Shown here piece after piece: positions 16,883-53,252 of a stretch of 64,000 nt of DNA. A program made the translations under genes and the position numbers. The notes beneath the pieces were generated by a model. The model was not told where the DNA came from. It saw only the letters and a list, made by a program, of their open reading frames with translations, and did not search any database. Position 1 is the stretch's first letter. Every line of letters starts with the position of its first letter. The DNA comes from a virus: the UHGV virus genome UHGV-0311442; one strand, written 5' to 3'.

Positions 16883-17254
16883 TTAGAACCCCTCAAGAAC
16901 AGCTTTCACAAATTCGTAAACCGTGCGTCGGTGTTCTTCAAGCGGATAAACAAACTTAGAATAATCGTTGTTCCAGACAACCGGATAGAGGTCGCCATCA
17001 CAACTTAAATAGCTCTTACGAACCATGTAATAATCTAAACCTACACGGAAGTTTAACGACAGACTACCGTGTTTACTACAAACGTGTAACTGGAGCGATT
17101 TCACACCGTCGTGAGTTGGTGATTCAATCGTTTCCGCATACAATACATCCGAACACTGTTCTATAGCGCTAACGACATCTCTGAGGTTGTTGTCTGCATC
17201 GATGGTCGCTTTTCGGAGAGCGTCGGTGTATTGCTGAAGTTCTCGATAGAACAT
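16883..17254 (-). CDS. Hypothetical protein (123 aa)
   Basis: ORF; N-terminus overlaps the end of 17161..17793 by 94 nt. Confidence 0.45.
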   Translation of the reverse strand: MFYRELQQYTDALRKATIDADNNLRDVVSAIEQCSDVLYAETIESPTHDGVKSLQLHVCSKHGSLSLNFRVGLDYYMVRKSYLSCDGDLYPVVWNNDYSKFVYPLEEHRRTVYEFVKAVLEGF

Positions 17255-17793
17255 CCTGCTAATCTCCTGTCTCTACCGTATGGCAGAGGAAATGCTTTGT
17301 GTTCAAATTCTGCAACGACATACGCAGGATAGAACAAAAGGTATTTATAGAACGTAGACAACGTAACGTTTTTCTGGGTGGCTAAAAAGTAATTAAGATC
17401 GGGGTTGTCTGGAAAAGCAAAATGCAACCCTGTGTATACCTGACCTTTATACTCCCCATTAAAGGGTGTGACTGCACATCGTGGGTGTGTCGGCTCGACG
17501 TGTAACCAACGACTTCTTACGTGATAAACGCCACGGACTGTCGCGTTTCGTGTTTTACCCAAATAACGGCAACGGATATTCTTTTCCCACGCCGCACGTT
17601 GAGTGGGTGAACCCAGAGAAACAAACCGCGTTAAAGCTTCAGGTGTAAAGTAATCAAAAATGCCGGTCGGTAAACACCAACACGCTTTATCGATTCGTAC
17701 CACTCTCCAACCAGGACGAAAACCCACAGCGTAACGCTCTACACCAAAAGTATATCTAGACCCGTCATGAAACGGTACTAATCTTGCAGCCAT
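17161..17793 (-). CDS. Hypothetical protein (210 aa)
   Basis: ORF; C-terminal about 30 codons overlap the next gene. Confidence 0.5.
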   Translation of the reverse strand: MAARLVPFHDGSRYTFGVERYAVGFRPGWRVVRIDKACWCLPTGIFDYFTPEALTRFVSLGSPTQRAAWEKNIRCRYLGKTRNATVRGVYHVRSRWLHVEPTHPRCAVTPFNGEYKGQVYTGLHFAFPDNPDLNYFLATQKNVTLSTFYKYLLFYPAYVVAEFEHKAFPLPYGRDRRLAGCSIENFSNTPTLSEKRPSMQTTTSEMSLAL

Positions 17794-17794
17794 T

Positions 17795-18262
17795 TTAGAT
17801 TTCCTTTATCATTTCCCTGCATTCGGTACGGAATCCCATTTTCTCATACAAGGAGATAGCTTTAACGTTGTTGTCTAACACATCCAGACTCATCCAACCA
17901 CAACCTTTGGACTTTCCGTATTCACGAACTTTGTCCATAAGCGCACGTCCTACCCCTTGAGAACGTGCTTCGGGAATCACATAGTAGTTCCCAATATAAA
18001 CAAATGTGTCCTTCGAGCAAGAACCTATTGAGAACGTCATGAAACCCAGAAGTTGTTCGTTGTCATCCACGGCACACGCACAGAGATAATCTTGGGGCCA
18101 AATCTCTTCTAAGTGTTCAATTGGGTTGAACGTGTCGCGACCGGTTAACTGACTAATACGCACTTTTTCTTCTGCGAACAGCATGTTGTGCAGTTTGAGT
18201 ACCTGGTCGCCGTATAACTTTCCGTATTTACTGTCGGGTTTGAGAATAATAGTAATACGCAT
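17795..18262 (-). CDS. GNAT family acetyltransferase (155 aa)
   Basis: YVIPEARSQGVGRALM...GFR matches GNAT motifs A and B. Confidence 0.8.
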   Translation of the reverse strand: MRITIILKPDSKYGKLYGDQVLKLHNMLFAEEKVRISQLTGRDTFNPIEHLEEIWPQDYLCACAVDDNEQLLGFMTFSIGSCSKDTFVYIGNYYVIPEARSQGVGRALMDKVREYGKSKGCGWMSLDVLDNNVKAISLYEKMGFRTECREMIKEI

Positions 18263-19395
18263 TATTTAACCTCAATCAGCGACAACCTGCACCACACCAG
18301 TAACCCTTCCGCAACGCGCACTAACGAGGTAGTAAACGCATCTTCTAAACGCAGTGCGTTTTTATAACGTACGGTAGCGTCGCGTAACTCCCGCCCTTCA
18401 AGCGACTTAAGTTCCTTACGCATACGCTGAATTTCGTCATAAATTCCTGTATACCCTACACTACGTCGTTTCGCACCACGCTGACGTAACGCTCGGATAA
18501 TGTTTCTAACGGCGTCGAGTGCTGAACCGATTTCGTGCAAGTTCAGAGATTTGATTGTGTGGCCAAAATCACCGTCGCGAGCAATCGCCCACTCAATCTT
18601 ACCGTTGTTGTGTTCAACGACCACCACGTTACCTGGCCACGGGTATGCTTTCACCGTTTTAAACGGATCGATAATACCGAACAGCCCTGCGCTTCGTTTA
18701 ATCGCCCAGTTCGTTGACCGGCCCACTTTCTCCAAACCACTCTCGGTAACTTTCTTGCTCTTACCGATTAACGTACGTGTTTTAACAGTATACTCGTTGA
18801 CCATCGCATCCATTGCACTCAGGTTCTTACTGAACTCAATACATGCTTTTACGTTAGGCTTGTCTTCTAAACAAACTTTGGTTGTCCAACTTCCCGTGTC
18901 ACAGTCAACCGGTTCTAAAGTGTCCTTGATACCGAGTAAACTTAAACGTGCTTCTAACTTCTGTAGCTTGCGCTCTAACGACGATGCTTTGGACGTCGCT
19001 TCTTTCAGTTCATTAATAACTTCTTTACCGGCGGCTTCCGCGAAGTCGATAAAACGTAAGGCCAATTGCTTAGAATGTTTACCTGCGAATTTTCCAGACG
19101 CTTTGGCTCCCGCCACTGCTGCTTTTCCAGCAACGCGTCCAACTCCCTTAACCGCTCTGCCGGTCGCACGCGCGACCGCTTTACCTACCCCTGCGTAAGG
19201 CTCGGTGTCCGCAACAAATTGCGCGCGTTCCATCATCGCTGCAGACTCCAACGCAACGTGGACATCATCTAAAGCCCACCGTTTTCGGATAGCGACAACC
19301 GCCGGATAATTGTCTTTAACATTAAGCGATTCTAACGCGACCAAACGATCGTAGTCATCGCAAAGGACTTCTAAATCGGAATCTAATGTTGACAT
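18262..19395 (-). CDS. Hypothetical protein with Gly/Ala/Lys-rich segment (377 aa)
   Basis: ORF; low-complexity AGVGKAVARATGRAVKGVGRVAGKAAVAGAKASGK. Confidence 0.6.
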   Translation of the reverse strand: MSTLDSDLEVLCDDYDRLVALESLNVKDNYPAVVAIRKRWALDDVHVALESAAMMERAQFVADTEPYAGVGKAVARATGRAVKGVGRVAGKAAVAGAKASGKFAGKHSKQLALRFIDFAEAAGKEVINELKEATSKASSLERKLQKLEARLSLLGIKDTLEPVDCDTGSWTTKVCLEDKPNVKACIEFSKNLSAMDAMVNEYTVKTRTLIGKSKKVTESGLEKVGRSTNWAIKRSAGLFGIIDPFKTVKAYPWPGNVVVVEHNNGKIEWAIARDGDFGHTIKSLNLHEIGSALDAVRNIIRALRQRGAKRRSVGYTGIYDEIQRMRKELKSLEGRELRDATVRYKNALRLEDAFTTSLVRVAEGLLVWCRLSLIEVK

Positions 19396-19445
19396 CCTTT
19401 ACCCCATTTTAAGCTAAAGCGGGGAGAAGCCCGCCCTGACTAACT

Positions 19446-19994
19446 TCATAATAAGCGTAGGTCTTCTAACCACTTAGATGCATCCGTAACATGATAATAA
19501 CAAGGGATGTTCAGTGACTGTGCGTAGCGGACACCCATCGCCGTACCCCCTTTTGGATTTCCCTTTTTATCATGCTCAGCGTAATAATAGACGGCGTCTA
19601 CATGATCGTCCAAAGAATCACCTGATACAATATTTAAGTTTCGTCCATGCAACACCCAAGCTATTTCCGATAGCTTATCAGGATTAGGGTGAAGCGATGC
19701 CACAATCCCACGATAACGGACGTCTTGTGGAATAACGCGAAAATCCACATTCGGATGTAACTTACGTAACCACAACTTACGTTCGTCAGGCAAATAACAA
19801 ATATGTGGTCCTGGTTCAGTACGTGCTAACATAAACTGTAATTGGTCTGGTCCTTTGTAACAACCGCCTGACCGCGTTTCGATACTGTGCTGTTTATTAC
19901 GAAGAATTTTGAACCCGCGTTGCAACACATCCAACATTTCATGCATCGTGTCTTCGGGCGTTTCTCGAGAACCAATAATAGCAATTTTATACAT
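19446..19994 (-). CDS. SLOG/DprA-like Rossmann-fold protein (182 aa)
   Basis: N-terminal IAIIGSRE..., then SGG..G.D and a C-terminal segment laid out like the DprA/Smf nucleotide-binding domain; GGAGGTG 5 nt upstream. Confidence 0.45.
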   Translation of the reverse strand: MYKIAIIGSRETPEDTMHEMLDVLQRGFKILRNKQHSIETRSGGCYKGPDQLQFMLARTEPGPHICYLPDERKLWLRKLHPNVDFRVIPQDVRYRGIVASLHPNPDKLSEIAWVLHGRNLNIVSGDSLDDHVDAVYYYAEHDKKGNPKGGTAMGVRYAQSLNIPCYYHVTDASKWLEDLRLL

Positions 19995-20019
19995 TTGTCA
20001 CCTCCATACTGAAGTTGTG

Positions 20020-20067
20020 AAGTGAAAAAAAAAGAAAGCAGGAGAGAACCTTTTCAGGGTTCTCTCC
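20020..20067 (-). terminator. Rho-independent terminator
   Basis: Stem GGAGAGAACC/GGTTCTCTCC then a 9-nt T-run. Confidence 0.8.
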
Positions 20068-20081
20068 TATCGGTGATGTTA

Positions 20082-20744
20082 TCACGCTTCTAAACCACTT
20101 AAAACGACGGTCTCGAGTAACGCTTTGCCCATCCAGACGTCCAACTCACCATCTAAGCCCCCTAAAGGACGTTTATTCAGTTCGTTGTTGTAATTAAGTC
20201 CGTCAAGGGTTTTATTCGTAATAATTTGCCCAATATGAAGCGGTAGAATAAATCGATTTCGTGCGCTATAAATAAACGAATCACATTCGTAAATTACCAC
20301 ATAGCGCTCGAGATCCTCATCATACTCAACGTGACACTGCGAGCCCGTGTCCCATGCACGCGACAAAACCATACCACGGTCTTGACACATCTTCTCCACC
20401 GACACTTTCGCGGACTCTGCCCATTTATCGTAATTTTTAGGTTGGCCGTTTTCGAAATCGAACCAATCCAGATACTTACCGGGAATATCAAGAAAGTCGT
20501 TCAATTGAAGTTTCGTGTAAGATATCATCACCGCGTCGTTAATATCATTGCGGTTAGTTAACTTTACTCGATACCGACCTTCCGGTGTGGGTGCGCCTAT
20601 TAAAGAAACATCCACTTTCTCAGCCGAAAGCTTTTTACGTACACTGCCGCTATTACAGTAACTAACGAGGTTGAGTAAGTTCTGTCTATGACCAACTTCA
20701 AAATCAATTACAAAAGACATACAAACTCCGCGGGGGTTAATCAC
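20082..20744 (-). CDS. Hypothetical protein (220 aa)
   Basis: ORF. Confidence 0.6.
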   Translation of the reverse strand: MINPRGVCMSFVIDFEVGHRQNLLNLVSYCNSGSVRKKLSAEKVDVSLIGAPTPEGRYRVKLTNRNDINDAVMISYTKLQLNDFLDIPGKYLDWFDFENGQPKNYDKWAESAKVSVEKMCQDRGMVLSRAWDTGSQCHVEYDEDLERYVVIYECDSFIYSARNRFILPLHIGQIITNKTLDGLNYNNELNKRPLGGLDGELDVWMGKALLETVVLSGLEA

Positions 20745-21631: not shown

Positions 21632-22108
21632 CTAATAAATCTTATCCGCAACAGAGAGAAAGATGGGGGTGTTTTCAATAAAATCCACCAAATATCCTTC
21701 TTCCGGCGGGGCGTATGACGAATCAACGTTACTGTTCGTCATACGAAAATACCGACGGGAGTCACTGGCAATAAACCATCGGTCTATTTGGAAGCCTTTT
21801 TTGGAAAAGAAACACAGTCCGTCAATGTTTGAGGGATGCACACGACACATCACCATTTGACGATCTGAATTAAGTTGAACGTATTTCAGTAAAAAGGAAC
21901 CTACACCGCTACGACGAGAACCTTCGGCCACTACCAGATAGATAAGATTCCCCGGCTCCCAGATTGCAACCCCATGTGTAATATCATCTTCAACGGCCAA
22001 CGTAATTTTAACTGGCGTTTCTCGAATCGAATTTAAGTCTTTGACGTATTCACGTAATTCAGGAAATTTAGCGGAAATTTTGTCTTCGGTAATATCTAAC
22101 TGCTGCAT
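21632..22108 (-). CDS. GNAT family acetyltransferase (158 aa)
   Basis: VVAEGSRRSGVGSFLL...KKGF matches GNAT motif A. Confidence 0.75.
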   Translation of the reverse strand: MQQLDITEDKISAKFPELREYVKDLNSIRETPVKITLAVEDDITHGVAIWEPGNLIYLVVAEGSRRSGVGSFLLKYVQLNSDRQMVMCRVHPSNIDGLCFFSKKGFQIDRWFIASDSRRYFRMTNSNVDSSYAPPEEGYLVDFIENTPIFLSVADKIY

Positions 22109-50641: not shown

Positions 50642-51904
50642 TTATTTAGATTTTTCGTAAGCAGCGATACCTGCGGAGATATAGCCGTTCAGACCGCCAG
50701 CCAGATGTTTCTGAGTAGAGGCAATAACTTTCTCGCCCAGAGACACTGCCTGGTTAATGCTGTTGATGTAACGACGTGCGGTACGTACAGATTCGGTCAG
50801 TTCCGGTTTTTCGTCGATCTTCACGCTGTCGATTTCTTTCAGCAGCTTCTCAATCTGCTGGCTGAATTTCTCGCGAGCCTGTTCGGTCTTACGATATTCC
50901 AGAACGTTCTTCTCAATCTGTTTACCCACTTCGTTGAAGAAGGCATTGGTCTTAGCCAGTTCGCTAACAGACGGAGTTTTAACGTTGGTTTCAGCACGGT
51001 TTTCAGCTTCCACGTAGCTGGAGCTAAAGCCGCCTTCTTCGTCATATTCCATCTTCAGCGCCATGTTACCAAGTTTGAACTTGTTAACATCTTCTTTGGC
51101 CAGAGCAGCGAAGTCTGCTTTCAGTTTCTCAACTTTAGCGCCATCGCCTTTAACGACACTACCAACCAAATCCGTACCGTTGTTCAGGAAGCTCTGAACG
51201 TTACCACTGTAGTAGGTGGAAACGTGGTTCAGGATATTCTTCAGGCGCACCAGATCGTCACCAACGAATTTACCGTCGACAGACAGAGACTTGATGAAGC
51301 CACCAGAGATTTCATCTTTCTTCTGTTTGCCCAGTTTACGAATAGCTTCGTCGTATTTCTTAGAACGAGCCTGGATGGATTTACCCTGGTTGGAGAATTT
51401 CAGCCAACGATCTTTGATCTTACGGCCTTGTTCTTTCAGCCATTCCCAAATACGTTTCAGGAAGGCTTTAATGTCGTCCCACAGGGATTCACGAGCAACC
51501 TGGCGACGGTTACGAGAACCGTAGGATTCGTGAGCAACAGAAGAACGGTGATCGAAGTTCCAACGAGAACGGATAGATTCCTGAGCAACGTCCAGCGCAG
51601 TCGCAGCGTCGTCCGGCATATCTTCTTCGGCGTCCATCGGGTCTTCGCCGTCTTCACCAGCACCCTCGCCGTCAGCAGCGGCCTGAGCTTCGTCCAGAAC
51701 ATCCAGCTGAGCGTCGGTTTCGTCACCGTCTTCTGCCAGCAGTTCAGCGTCAGCGTCCAGGGCTTCGATCGGTTTGGTATCATGCTCGATATCGGCCAGA
51801 GTACCTTCAACAGATTCTGCTGGCAGTTCGATGCCGTCTGGAACTACAGTGGCAGTAGCTTCCATCGATTCACGAGCGGCGCGAGTTTTTGCGAAATTTG
51901 CCAT
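50642..51904 (-). CDS. Abundant acidic virion-type protein, paralog 1 (420 aa); scaffold, internal head or capsid candidate
   Basis: N-terminus MANFAKTRAARESMEA identical to 51981..53252; acidic about 100-aa N-terminal region with several [SAG]-x-E motifs; optimal codon usage; shared C-terminus GLNGY..AGI.AY.KSK. Confidence 0.75.
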   Translation of the reverse strand: MANFAKTRAARESMEATATVVPDGIELPAESVEGTLADIEHDTKPIEALDADAELLAEDGDETDAQLDVLDEAQAAADGEGAGEDGEDPMDAEEDMPDDAATALDVAQESIRSRWNFDHRSSVAHESYGSRNRRQVARESLWDDIKAFLKRIWEWLKEQGRKIKDRWLKFSNQGKSIQARSKKYDEAIRKLGKQKKDEISGGFIKSLSVDGKFVGDDLVRLKNILNHVSTYYSGNVQSFLNNGTDLVGSVVKGDGAKVEKLKADFAALAKEDVNKFKLGNMALKMEYDEEGGFSSSYVEAENRAETNVKTPSVSELAKTNAFFNEVGKQIEKNVLEYRKTEQAREKFSQQIEKLLKEIDSVKIDEKPELTESVRTARRYINSINQAVSLGEKVIASTQKHLAGGLNGYISAGIAAYEKSK

Positions 51905-51980: not shown

Positions 51981-53252
51981 TTATTTAGACTTTTTGTACG
52001 CGCCGATACCAGCACCCAGGTAACCGTTCAGACCGCTAATAACGGTGTTAGCTACGTAGCTAACGGCACGGTTCAGGGTCTGGTAGTTCTTCACAGACTG
52101 ATCAGCGGCTTGACGTGCATTACGCAGTCCTTCCCACTTACTTTCGTCTTTTTCGTTGTTCAGCGCGTTGGACGCTTTTTCAGCAGCCTGTTGCAGTTTC
52201 ACGATTTCAGAATCGTAAGCACGGAAATCTTTCAGTACAGCTTCGAAGCCTTTACCGATCGCTTCCAGAGCAGATGCTGCGCCAGCCATTTCAGAAACAG
52301 ACGGAGTAGCCACTTCTTTATCGTCAGAAGCGTCACCGGTGCTCATGAAAGCAATTGCGGTGAACTTGTGGCCGCCAGCCAGTTCTTTAGTACCAGCCTG
52401 AACGTATGCGTTGCCCGGCAGTGCCAGCAATTTAGACGCATCACCTTTTTCAAAGTTCGGCAGAGAATGCAGTTTAGACGCTGCTTTACCAAACAGTTCA
52501 ACCGGCTGATCGCCACGCATCGCTTTGAATGCGTCATCGTCGCCTTTGGTAACAGCAGTCACAGCTTCGCCAGCTTGTTTTTCCAGTGCGTTGATAGCAC
52601 CTTTCGCTTTACCTGCGGTCACTTCTTTAGCGATGGCAATAGAGCCAGCAGCATCGAATTTACCTTCGATGGACAGTTTGGTGATAAAGCCACCGGAAAC
52701 GTTGTCTTTATCTTGTTTGCCCAGCTTGCGGATCATTTCCTGATATTTCTTCGCACGTTTCTGTGCGGTCTTACCGACGTTGAAATATTTCAGTTTCAGG
52801 TCTTTGATTTTCGCAATCACTTCTTTACAGAACTGAATGAAACGCTCGTAAAGACCTTTCAGGGTTTCTTTCCAACCTTCCTGGGCAGCAACAGTCATGC
52901 CACGGCCACGGCGATAGGATTCGCGAGCCAGTTTAGTACGCTCCAGGTTCCAGCGACGTGCGATGGATTCCTGTGCCACTTCGTGCAGGGCAACCGCTTC
53001 TTCCGGCATTTCTTCACCGTTAGCAACGGCTTCTTCCGCCTGTTCGATAGCGTCTTCAGTACGCTCGGTATCGGCAGCCAGGGTTTCACCGTCGGTTTCC
53101 AGCTGATCGAGCTGACCGTCGATAGATGCTACGTCCGCAAGTTGGACGTCCAGGTTCTCTTCTGCCGGTTCAACGTTGCTGATACCGTCGATTACTTCAT
53201 CGGCCGCTTCCATCGATTCACGAGCGGCGCGAGTTTTTGCGAAATTTGCCAT
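51981..53252 (-). CDS. Abundant acidic virion-type protein, paralog 2 (423 aa)
   Basis: Same N- and C-terminal blocks as 50642..51904; shared KKY.E.IRKLGKQ.KD..SGGFI.KLS..GKF and TPSVSE. Confidence 0.75.
   Translation of the reverse strand: MANFAKTRAARESMEAADEVIDGISNVEPAEENLDVQLADVASIDGQLDQLETDGETLAADTERTEDAIEQAEEAVANGEEMPEEAVALHEVAQESIARRWNLERTKLARESYRRGRGMTVAAQEGWKETLKGLYERFIQFCKEVIAKIKDLKLKYFNVGKTAQKRAKKYQEMIRKLGKQDKDNVSGGFITKLSIEGKFDAAGSIAIAKEVTAGKAKGAINALEKQAGEAVTAVTKGDDDAFKAMRGDQPVELFGKAASKLHSLPNFEKGDASKLLALPGNAYVQAGTKELAGGHKFTAIAFMSTGDASDDKEVATPSVSEMAGAASALEAIGKGFEAVLKDFRAYDSEIVKLQQAAEKASNALNNEKDESKWEGLRNARQAADQSVKNYQTLNRAVSYVANTVISGLNGYLGAGIGAYKKSK

What the first reader, a model, noticed from the sequence alone, without database searches (positions are those of the whole stretch)
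19446..19994. Phage-encoded SLOG/DprA-like nucleotide-binding protein
The 182-aa protein starts IAIIGSRE and has SGG..G.D and C-terminal blocks arranged as in the Rossmann-like domain of DprA/Smf and related SLOG proteins. In phages such proteins could act in recombination mediation or bind nucleotide-derived signals, a possible counter-defence role. It has a strong RBS and its own terminator.
Basis: partly seen in the sequence, partly recalled or inferred. Interest (0 to 1): 0.45.

Follow-up and report, generated by a model that had tools for sequence, protein, structure and literature searches.

The report
DprA-like ssDNA-binding protein of jumbo phage
This is a real, well-conserved gene of a phiKZ-type giant phage that encodes a single-domain relative of the bacterial DNA-uptake protein DprA; the family is already recognised in phage annotation, but nobody has tested what it does.

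Summary
The 182-aa ORF at 19446-19994 (minus strand) is real. It has a GGAGGT Shine-Dalgarno, and a metagenomic variant differs at 20 nucleotides with no amino-acid change. The claimed own terminator is not supported: the strong terminator lies upstream and belongs to the previous gene.

Both published DprA ssDNA-binding signatures (G-S-R and L-x-x-R-N) are invariant across the family. The LOG catalytic motif is absent.

Orthologues (57-62% identity) occur in SPN3US (gp92) and Asesino (gp108), and RefSeq already names them DprA-like. Iyer et al. 2021 noted DprA/Smf in jumbo phages.

The same domain is fused elsewhere to Dda-like helicase, AlkB, NADAR and Macro domains.

Verdict: a new member of a known, computationally described family. 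The biochemical role is inferred, not shown: most likely ssDNA binding, possibly nucleotide-signal handling. Interest is low to moderate.

The parts
19446..19994 (-). CDS of 182 aa (ATG 19994-19992, TGA 19448-19446). It is a single-domain DprA-like SLOG protein, orthologue of SPN3US gp92 and Asesino gp108.
20000..20005 (-). Shine-Dalgarno GGAGGT, with a 5-nt spacer (GACAA) to the ATG.
19965..19973 (-). Codons for G8-S9-R10, the loop after strand 1. This matches the DprA 'G-S/T/A-R' ssDNA-binding signature. R10 is equivalent to HpDprA Arg52.
   Evidence: It is invariant in 44 diverse family members and present in 135/135 full-length domain matches. It aligns to the DprA GSR/GTR motif. The motif is defined in PMC3950713.
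19845..19871 (-). Codons for S42-G-G-C-Y-K-G-P-D50, which matches the 'SGxAxGxD' block of DprA (SGLARGID).
   Evidence: G43, G48 and D50 are invariant. The block is aligned.
19638..19652 (-). Codons for L115-H-G-R118-N119, which matches the DprA 'F/L/Y-x-x-R-N/D' helix signature (HpDprA Phe140, Arg143, Asn144: the base pocket).
   Evidence: R118 and N119 are invariant and H116 nearly so. The motif is present in 126/135 domains. It aligns to FPRRN. The motif is defined in PMC3950713.
19542..19550 (-). Codons for G149-G150-T151, at the N-terminus of the helix after strand 4. This matches the SGS/SGT block of DprA (HpDprA Gly164). It is not the LOG motif PGGxGTxxE.
   Evidence: It is invariant and present in 135/135 domains, while the LOG motif is found in 0/135. 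It is aligned.
19689..19691 (-). Codon for H102, from the 'HP' motif. This histidine is specific to the family, is nearly invariant, and has no counterpart in the DprA signatures.
20029..20069 (-). Strong intrinsic terminator (12-bp stem, 7-nt loop, U-rich tail) belonging to the upstream gene 20082-20744. It leaves about 34 nt before the ATG of the DprA-like gene.
   Evidence: (z = -3.95)
19417..19436 (-). Short GC hairpin (GGGCGGG/CCCGCUU) in the 50-nt spacer before the next gene, an internal head protein.
   Evidence: z = -0.12; not called

Best explanation
The gene encodes a stand-alone DprA-type SLOG (Rossmannoid) domain of a phiKZ-like, SPN3US/Asesino-related jumbo phage.

Shown:
- It is a real gene under purifying selection.
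- It belongs to phage family PHROG 768.
- It has a SLOG fold whose nearest solved relatives are DprA and ShosA.
- The two DprA ssDNA-binding signatures (GSR loop; L-x-x-R-N helix), plus the SGG..G.D and GGT blocks, are invariant across the family.

Inferred:
- Like the DprA Rossmann domain, it grips single-stranded nucleic acid. One base would insert into the pocket formed by R10, L115/R118/N119 and G149-G150, with the arginines holding the phosphates.
- In the infected cell it acts on phage ssDNA intermediates. It may protect them, hand them to a RecA/UvsX-type recombinase during recombination-dependent replication, or recruit repair enzymes.
- It lacks the SAM and winged-helix domains of bacterial DprA. 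I therefore treat it as a minimal ssDNA-binding module, not as an orthologue of the competence protein.
For: Family and fold:
- PHROG 768 matches at E 3.5e-43 over residues 1-172.
- The AF2 model has pLDDT 94.3 and pTM 0.90.
- A profile of 44 diverse members finds only DprA chains in the PDB at E about 1e-4.
- HHalign against five DprA/ShosA domains gives probability 96.7-97.3% and E 4e-10 to 6e-11 over 169-182 columns, with the motifs in register.
- DNA_processg_A is the most frequent sub-threshold Pfam match, in 22 of 44 members.

Motifs:
- G8, R10, G43, G48, D50, R118, N119, G149, G150 and T151 are invariant.
- The motifs are kept in 126-135 of 135 domains.
- PMC3950713 shows these two motifs make the base pocket of HpDprA. 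R52E and R143E cut ssDNA affinity about 315-fold and 173-fold.

Fusions of the full PHROG-768 domain to enzymes that work on ssDNA:
- Dda-like SF1 helicase (P0099).
- AlkB-type dioxygenase plus NADAR (P0078).
- NADAR (P0094, P0131).
- NADAR plus Macro (P0115).
- HTH (P0058).

Literature:
- Phage NADAR and Macro proteins de-ADP-ribosylate ssDNA (PMC11543638, PMC11825919, PMC13309987).
- Iyer et al. [quoted passage not shown]
Against: - No binding or activity has been measured for any member of this family.
- The window protein fails every curated DprA model: Pfam PF02481 gives no hit at E <= 10 and NCBIfam gives none.
- The segment between strand 3 and the RN helix is arranged differently from DprA. 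The equivalent of HpDprA Tyr108 therefore could not be assigned.
- Gene neighbourhoods are not recombination operons. Here the neighbours are an internal head protein, GNAT acetyltransferases and unknown proteins. Elsewhere they are dCTPase/MazG, PhoH or RNA ligase 2.
- T4-like phages that already have UvsY also carry the gene. This argues against a simple role as a UvsY substitute.
- Two family-specific, nearly invariant histidines (H102, H116) have no explanation in the DprA model. They could indicate catalysis or a different ligand.
Confidence: 0.45

Rival explanations
1. Counter-defence sensor, sponge or hydrolase for nucleotide-derived immune signals. The SLOG pocket would bind, and perhaps cleave the N-glycosidic bond of, ADP-ribose-derived or cyclic nucleotide messengers such as the cADPR isomers of Thoeris. 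This would blunt abortive infection. Iyer et al. 2022 predicted this for viral SLOG domains.
For: - The domain is repeatedly fused to NADAR and Macro domains, the contexts that PMC9503650 used for this prediction.
- The family has extra invariant polar residues (H102, H116, T12, D50) that DprA signatures do not require.
- Neighbourhoods in other phages are auxiliary or nucleotide-metabolism regions.
Against: - ThsA-type and LOG-type SLOG domains are structurally more distant than DprA.
- The LOG catalytic motif PGGxGTxxE is absent in 135/135 domains.
- No PADLOC model matches.
- NADAR and Macro phage proteins are now known to act on ADP-ribosylated DNA. The fusions therefore no longer point specifically to soluble signals (PMC11543638, PMC13309987).
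- Fusions to Dda helicase, AlkB and HTH point to nucleic acid.
Confidence: 0.2
2. ssDNA-targeting accessory of base-damage reversal, not a recombination mediator. The domain would find or flip modified bases in phage ssDNA and hand them to de-ADP-ribosylases (NADAR as in AdfN, Macro as in AdfM) or to AlkB. This would counter DarT-type and alkylating host attacks. The stand-alone form would work with separately encoded enzymes.
For: - Full PHROG-768 domains sit in one polypeptide with AlkB plus NADAR, with NADAR alone, and with NADAR plus Macro.
- DarT toxins modify ssDNA, and phage NADAR and Macro proteins reverse this (PMC11543638, PMC11825919).
- The close relative Asesino is a chimallivirus that encodes the Macro protein AdfM, gp217 (PMC13309987).
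- DprA inserts a single base into the conserved pocket (PMC3950713).
Against: - No NADAR or Macro gene lies next to the gene in this window or in the relatives I inspected.
- Most family members are stand-alone (130 of 182).
- The idea rests only on domain fusions, seen in 4-5 of about 20 fused proteins scanned.
Confidence: 0.15
3. A nucleotide or nucleic-acid N-glycosidase, that is, a LOG-like enzyme. The pocket would hold a base, and the family-specific His and Asp residues would catalyse base release from a nucleotide or from ssDNA.
For: - H102, H116 and D50 are invariant and not explained by the DprA model.
Against: - The LOG catalytic motif, including its Glu, is absent.
- D50 is also conserved in non-catalytic DprA.
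Confidence: 0.07
4. ShosA-like antitoxin mimic. The phage DprA-like protein would replace or imitate the DprA-like antitoxin ShosA and so neutralise the PRTase toxin ShosT of the ShosTA defence system.
For: - ShosA's antitoxin activity needs ssDNA binding, dimerisation and RecA binding (PMC12961424).
- Phages are known to carry orphan antitoxin-like genes (PMC11825919).
Against: - Sequence similarity to ShosA is no greater than to ordinary DprA.
- The phage protein lacks ShosA's N-terminal region (about 308-318 aa against 182 aa).
- ShosTA is too rare to explain conservation in 266 phage genomes of many hosts.
Confidence: 0.03

Closest known systems
PHROG 768 / RefSeq 'DprA-like DNA recombination-mediator protein' of phages (SPN3US gp92, Erwinia phage Asesino gp108, phiEaH2, Phi92 gp047, Acinetobacter and Aeromonas T4-like phages)
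   Same: - Full-length match at E 3.5e-43.
- 57-62% identity to the SPN3US- and Asesino-group orthologues.
- Conserved gene order with Asesino and SPN3US.
- Same predicted fold, TM 0.7-0.8 in BFVD.
   Different: - It is 16-17 aa shorter than the Erwinia and Salmonella orthologues. It lacks their insertion after residue 60.
- The small gene that follows in Asesino (gp109) and SPN3US (gp93) is absent here.
Bacterial DprA/Smf (Pfam PF02481; PDB 3MAJ, 4LJK/4LJR, 3UQZ)
   Same: - HHalign probability 97%.
- Both ssDNA-binding signatures (G-S/T/A-R and F/L/Y-x-x-R-N/D), plus the SGxAxGxD and SG(S/T) blocks.
   Different: - It does not reach any Pfam or NCBIfam DprA threshold.
- It has no SAM or winged-helix (DML1) domains.
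- The region between strand 3 and the RN helix is rearranged.
- It has family-specific invariant H102 and H116.
- No competence context exists, and dimerisation and RecA binding are unknown.
ShosA, DprA-like antitoxin of the ShosTA defence system (PDB 8ZVA, 9VZO)
   Different: ShosA is about 310-330 aa, has an N-terminal extension and is paired with ShosT. No PRTase partner is present here.
Other SLOG clades: YpsA (2NX2), TM1055 (1RCU), Moco carrier protein (2IZ5), LOG (5WQ3, 5AJT), ThsA SLOG (7UXS), and phage YAcAr/DUF2493
   Different: - The RN helix motif is DprA-specific.
- The LOG motif is absent.
- Phage YAcAr/DUF2493 proteins match only at TM 0.4-0.5, against 0.7-0.8 for PHROG-768 members.
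- YAcAr is a sub-threshold Pfam match in only 4 of 44 members, and YpsA (DUF1273) in none.

Membership tests
SLOG (SMF/DprA-LOG) superfamily | Three-layer alpha/beta Rossmannoid fold with a parallel sheet, matching solved SLOG structures | tested here: met
   [not shown]
SLOG (SMF/DprA-LOG) superfamily | Gly-rich loop after strand 1 and a Gly-Gly-(Ser/Thr) cap of the helix after strand 4 | tested here: met
   G8-S9-R10 and G149-G150-T151 are invariant in 44 members and present in 135/135 domains.
PHROG 768 (phage DprA-like) | Significant full-length match to the family HMM | tested here: met
   E 3.5e-43, residues 1-172 on profile positions 3-170 of 191.
DprA/Smf (Pfam PF02481 DNA_processg_A) | Score above the Pfam gathering threshold (29.6 bits) | tested here: not met
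   The window protein gives no hit at E <= 10. Among 44 relatives, 22 give only sub-threshold matches, best E 4.7e-5. NCBIfam gives none.
DprA/Smf | Signature 1: G-S/T/A-R in the loop after the first strand (HpDprA G50-R52) | tested here: met
   GSR at residues 8-10 is invariant and aligns to the DprA GSR/GTR motif. The motif comes from PMC3950713.
DprA/Smf | Signature 2: F/L/Y-x-x-R-N/D in the pocket helix (HpDprA F140-N144) | tested here: met
   L115-H-G-R118-N119. R and N are invariant. The motif is present in 126/135 domains and aligns to FPRRN.
DprA/Smf | Accessory SAM (N-terminal) and/or winged-helix DML1 (C-terminal) domains | tested here: not met
   The 182 aa form a single domain. Some bacterial DprA proteins also consist of the domain alone (PMC3950713), so this feature is typical of the family but not universal.
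DprA/Smf | ssDNA binding, homodimerisation and RecA interaction or loading | not testable with these tools
   These need EMSA or MST, SEC-MALS, pull-downs or a multimer prediction. None is available here.
LOG (Pfam PF03641) | Catalytic motif P-G-G-x-G-T-x-x-E | tested here: not met
   The sequence at the equivalent place is PKGGTAMGV. The motif is absent from 135/135 family domains, and there is no Pfam hit.
YpsA / YAcAr (DUF1273 / DUF2493) SLOG clades | Profile match to PF06908 or PF10686, with closest structural similarity | tested here: not met
   [not shown]
ShosTA toxin-antitoxin (ShosA) | DprA-like protein encoded next to a PRTase toxin, ShosT | tested here: not met
   The neighbours are an internal head protein, GNAT acetyltransferases and unknown PHROGs. 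There is no PRTase.
Thoeris ThsA-type SLOG sensor | SLOG domain closest to the ThsA cADPR-binding domain, fused or linked to an effector | tested here: not met
   [not shown]

The most novel reading that the evidence does not exclude
PHROG-768 proteins may not be recombination mediators at all. They could be a phage-specific base-pocket module that recognises host-modified bases in phage ssDNA, such as ADP-ribosylated or alkylated bases. They might even excise such bases, using the family-specific His residues. In this reading they work with NADAR (AdfN), Macro (AdfM), AlkB and Dda-type enzymes as a widespread, so far unrecognised arm of anti-DarT and anti-DNA-damage counter-defence. In chimalliviruses this would take place inside the phage nucleus.
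Probability: 0.15. Interest if true: 0.6.

Novelty: new member of a known kind. Interest (0 to 1): 0.22.

Why it matters
The family is common. It occurs in 266 sequenced phage genomes, including SPN3US- and Asesino-type nucleus-forming jumbo phages, T4-like Acinetobacter and Aeromonas phages, and PVP-SE1- and Phi92-like phages. About 2,200 clusters at 50% identity match it in metagenomes, including 4-5 kaa multi-domain proteins. Despite this, it has never been tested experimentally.

Knowing its role would fill a gap in either of two fields. It may bind ssDNA, either for recombination or for repair of host-inflicted base modifications. Or it may intercept nucleotide immune signals. The first answer bears on giant-phage replication biology, the second on the phage counter-defence catalogue.

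For this window the result is mainly a clean annotation. It is an orthologue of an already named family, not a new system.

Tried and rejected
- Single-sequence searches against Pfam, NCBIfam, PADLOC and PDB sequences gave nothing meaningful. The only hits were chance matches such as FOG1 PR, ETV6 fusions and SEL1.
- A profile of close relatives only (A1) also failed to reach DprA in the PDB. The broader alignment A2 was needed.
- Megablast against phage genomes found no near-identical DNA.
- The 'own terminator' was tested and rejected.
- I looked for a RecA/UvsX-like gene or other recombination genes among 20 neighbouring and large ORFs of the window. I found only structural proteins, internal head proteins, GNAT acetyltransferases and unknown proteins.
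- I looked for a conserved functional neighbour across five other phage lineages. Contexts vary. The only recurring neighbour is RNA ligase 2 in some T4-like phages.
- I searched papers for experimental data on SPN3US gp92 and found none.
- The supplements of the two Iyer et al. papers are not held.
- The afdb50 fold library was unavailable.
I could therefore not measure whether H102 and H116 line the pocket, nor superpose the model on the HpDprA-ssDNA complex.
- From the HHalign register, I rejected equating Y67 of the 'YLP' block with HpDprA Tyr108.

Full report
**1. The observation**

The ORF listing finds an ATG-initiated ORF of 182 aa at 19446..19994 on the minus strand. The protein starts MYKIAIIGSRETPED. 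It contains SGGCYKGPD (residues 42-50), LHGRN (115-119) and GGT (149-151), and I verified the codon coordinates.

GGAGGT lies at 20000-20005, five bases upstream of the ATG, so the strong ribosome-binding site is confirmed.

The 'own terminator' is not confirmed.
- The scan reports a single terminator-like site in 19200-20300. It is upstream of the gene, at 20069-20039 on the minus strand, with 12 pairs and a CUUUCUUUUU tail.
- That site folds far better than shuffles (z = -3.95). It terminates the preceding gene, 20082-20744.
- The small GC hairpin in the 50-nt spacer downstream (19417-19436) is no better than chance (z = -0.12).

The ORF is a genuine gene.
- The identical protein is encoded in 47 blocks of public metagenome assemblies, on contigs up to 223 kb.
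- One of these copies differs at 20 nucleotides without any amino-acid change.
- tblastn finds homologues in 266 phage genomes.

**2. What phage this is**

The nearest cultured relatives are Erwinia phage Asesino (62% identity), phiEaH2 (60%), and Salmonella phage SPN3US and its kin (58%). All are jumbo phages of about 240 kb.

Gene order around the gene matches Asesino gp107-gp113 and SPN3US gp91-gp97. The gene downstream is a phiKZ-type internal head protein, and GNAT acetyltransferases lie on both sides. Asesino is a nucleus-forming chimallivirus (PMC13309987).

The window therefore comes from an uncultured phiKZ-like jumbo phage. The gene is the orthologue of SPN3US gp92 and Asesino gp108.

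**3. Family**

The single sequence hits no Pfam, NCBIfam or PADLOC model, and nothing meaningful among PDB sequences. It does match PHROG 768, 'DprA-like DNA recombination-mediator protein', at E 3.5e-43 over its whole length. RefSeq versions of the related genomes already carry that product name.

An exhaustive profile search against 1.84 billion representatives gives 2,216 matches at E <= 1e-3 and 280 at E <= 1e-10.

**4. Fold**

An AlphaFold2 model built on 25 relatives is very confident: pLDDT 94.3, pTM 0.90. It is an alternating beta/alpha Rossmannoid domain.

| Search | Result |
|---|---|
| Foldseek vs PDB | The same superfamily, with YpsA, TM1055, MCP and LOG first and weak TM scores of about 0.5 |
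| Foldseek vs BFVD | TM 0.7-0.8 to Phi92_gp047 and phage proteins named DprA-like; TM 0.4-0.5 to phage YAcAr/DUF2493 SLOG proteins |

The fold is unambiguously SLOG. DprA is the nearest clade, but by a small margin.

**5. Sequence-level link to DprA**

- A profile of 44 diverse family members (A2) finds only DprA chains in the PDB at significant E-values, 1.5e-4 to 3.8e-4.
- When each of the 44 members is scanned against Pfam, the commonest match is DNA_processg_A (22 members, all below threshold). LDcluster4 follows with 8 and YAcAr with 4. None matches LOG or YpsA.
- I assembled five DprA-type Rossmann domains: E. coli Smf from the K-12 genome and the PDB chains printed. HHalign of A2 against them gives 96.7-97.3% probability and E 4e-10 to 6e-11 over 169-182 columns.
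- The blocks align in register: GSR with GSR, SGG.xG.D with SGLARGID, LHxRN with FPRRN, and GGT with SGS.

**6. Motifs and mechanism**

Wang et al. (PMC3950713) solved H. pylori DprA with ssDNA. They defined two signatures of the DprA domain: G-S/T/A-R in the loop after the first strand, and F/L/Y-x-x-R-N/D in the pocket helix.
- Arg52 gates the pocket.
- Phe140, Arg143, Asn144 and Gly164 hold one inserted base.
- R52E and R143E lower affinity about 315-fold and 173-fold.

In the phage family, G8, R10, G43, G48, D50, R118, N119, G149, G150 and T151 are invariant over 44 sequences that share only 23-73% identity with the query. Among 135 full-length domain matches, G[STA]R and [GS]G[TS] occur in all 135, and x-x-R-[ND] preceded by a hydrophobic residue occurs in 126. 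The LOG motif PGGxGTxxE occurs in none.

The pocket-forming residues of DprA are thus the most conserved positions of the phage family. This is the main basis for inferring that the protein binds a base of single-stranded nucleic acid in the same way.

Two points remain open.
- The segment between strand 3 and the RN helix has a different order of secondary-structure elements from DprA. I could not assign an equivalent of Tyr108.
- H102 and H116 are nearly invariant and specific to the phage family. I could not place them in 3D.

**7. Domain fusions**

Of 182 related proteins in hand, 130 are stand-alone and 52 are longer than 260 aa, 14 of them above 2,000 aa.

| Protein | Architecture |
|---|---|
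| P0099 | PHROG-768 domain + Dda-like SF1 helicase |
| P0078 | AlkB-type dioxygenase + domain + NADAR |
| P0094, P0131 | domain + NADAR |
| P0115 | domain + NADAR + Macro |
| P0058 | HTH + domain |
| P0067 | DUF7831 + domain |
| P0122 | 4,369 aa, domain at the extreme C-terminus |

Iyer et al. 2022 (PMC9503650) described the same kinds of fusions for viral SLOG domains. They took them as evidence that viral SLOGs sense or degrade soluble ADP-ribose-derived signals.

Since then, NADAR and Macro proteins have been shown to remove ADP-ribose from guanine and thymine in ssDNA. This includes the phage proteins AdfN and the chimallivirus AdfM (PMC11543638, PMC11125620, PMC11825919, PMC13309987). Dda and AlkB also work on single strands. 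The fusions therefore fit an ssDNA-binding module at least as well as a small-molecule sensor.

**8. Genomic context**

No recombination genes flank the gene here. In other lineages the neighbours differ:
- dCTP pyrophosphatase in Acinetobacter phage Kimel;
- MazG-like pyrophosphatase in Pseudomonas phage Kassivere;
- PhoH in a Klebsiella phage;
- RNA ligase 2 in T4-like Karamvirus phages, where the start codon overlaps the ligase stop codon by one base.

Context therefore neither supports nor excludes a recombination role. T4-like phages that have UvsX and UvsY also keep the gene, which argues against a simple role as a UvsY replacement. That idea was raised by Iyer et al. 2021, who also noted that RecA homologues are widespread in group 1 jumbo phages (PMC7824862).

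**9. Verdict**

This is a phage-encoded, single-domain, DprA-like SLOG protein.

It does not qualify as a member of curated DprA/Smf (PF02481), because that threshold was tested and not met. It is a member of the phage sister family PHROG 768, and it keeps the DprA ssDNA-pocket signatures.

| Explanation | Confidence |
|---|---|
| ssDNA binding that acts on phage DNA intermediates | about 0.45 |
| Nucleotide-signal handling | 0.20 |
| ssDNA-targeting partner of base-damage reversal | 0.15 |
| Glycosidase | 0.07 |
| ShosA mimic | 0.03 |

The family is already annotated in RefSeq and discussed in two comparative-genomics papers. This is therefore a new member of a known kind, of low to moderate interest. 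What stays open is that no member has been characterised experimentally.

Noticed in passing
window 20029-20081 (minus strand): A strong intrinsic terminator (12-bp stem, U-run, z = -3.95) sits only about 34 nt upstream of the DprA-like ATG. This leaves no room for a sigma-70 promoter. The gene must be expressed by read-through or from a compact phage-RNAP promoter; a TATG lies just before the SD. The predicted 5'UTR also forms a second hairpin that pairs CACUUCA with the GGAGGUG Shine-Dalgarno.
   Followed up: partly
window 18262-19395, 50642-51904, 51981-53252 (all minus strand): There are three paralogous phiKZ-type internal head proteins (PHROG 2497; Pfam phiKZ_IP for the first). One lies immediately downstream of the DprA-like gene.
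   Followed up: partly
window 17795-18262 and 21632-22108 (minus strand): Two GNAT-family acetyltransferase genes (PHROG 3810 and PHROG 7861) bracket the locus. Both are conserved in Asesino (gp111, gp104) and SPN3US (gp95, gp88). Their targets are unknown.
   Followed up: no
window 19396-19445, compared with L001 8617-8883 and L004 3622-3894: Asesino (gp109) and SPN3US (gp93) have a small gene of about 88-90 aa between the DprA-like gene and the internal head protein. In this window only a 50-nt spacer lies there.
   Followed up: no
window 16883-17254 and 17161-17793 (minus strand): Two adjacent genes (PHROG 8535 and PHROG 9255) overlap by 94 nt. Overlaps of about 55 nt between their homologues are also annotated in Asesino (gp112/gp113) and SPN3US (gp96/gp97).
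   Followed up: no
L002 4004-4549 (Cronobacter phage Pet-CM3-4, LT614807.1): An unannotated 181-aa PHROG-768 homologue (MRLALIGSRET...FARN...GGT) starts on the last base of the RNA ligase 2 stop codon, which suggests translational coupling. Several T4-like records place the match under an 'RNA ligase' annotation.
   Followed up: partly
L015 1001-14110 (metagenome contig ERZ27271728 k141_83032): A 4,369-aa ORF has no Pfam domains other than a full PHROG-768 domain at its extreme C-terminus (residues 4186-4348). It is followed by a 1,621-aa ORF that also has no Pfam hits. About a dozen similar proteins of 4-5 kaa appear among the representatives.
   Followed up: partly
window-wide; loci L009-L013: The same phage, or very close variants, recurs in many public metagenome runs: ERR10900965, ERR11042499, ERR14760777, SRR29133897 and ENA PICK22-1. 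Contigs reach 224 kb. The phage is abundant but uncultured, and its closest isolate shares only about 62% identity for this protein.
   Followed up: partly
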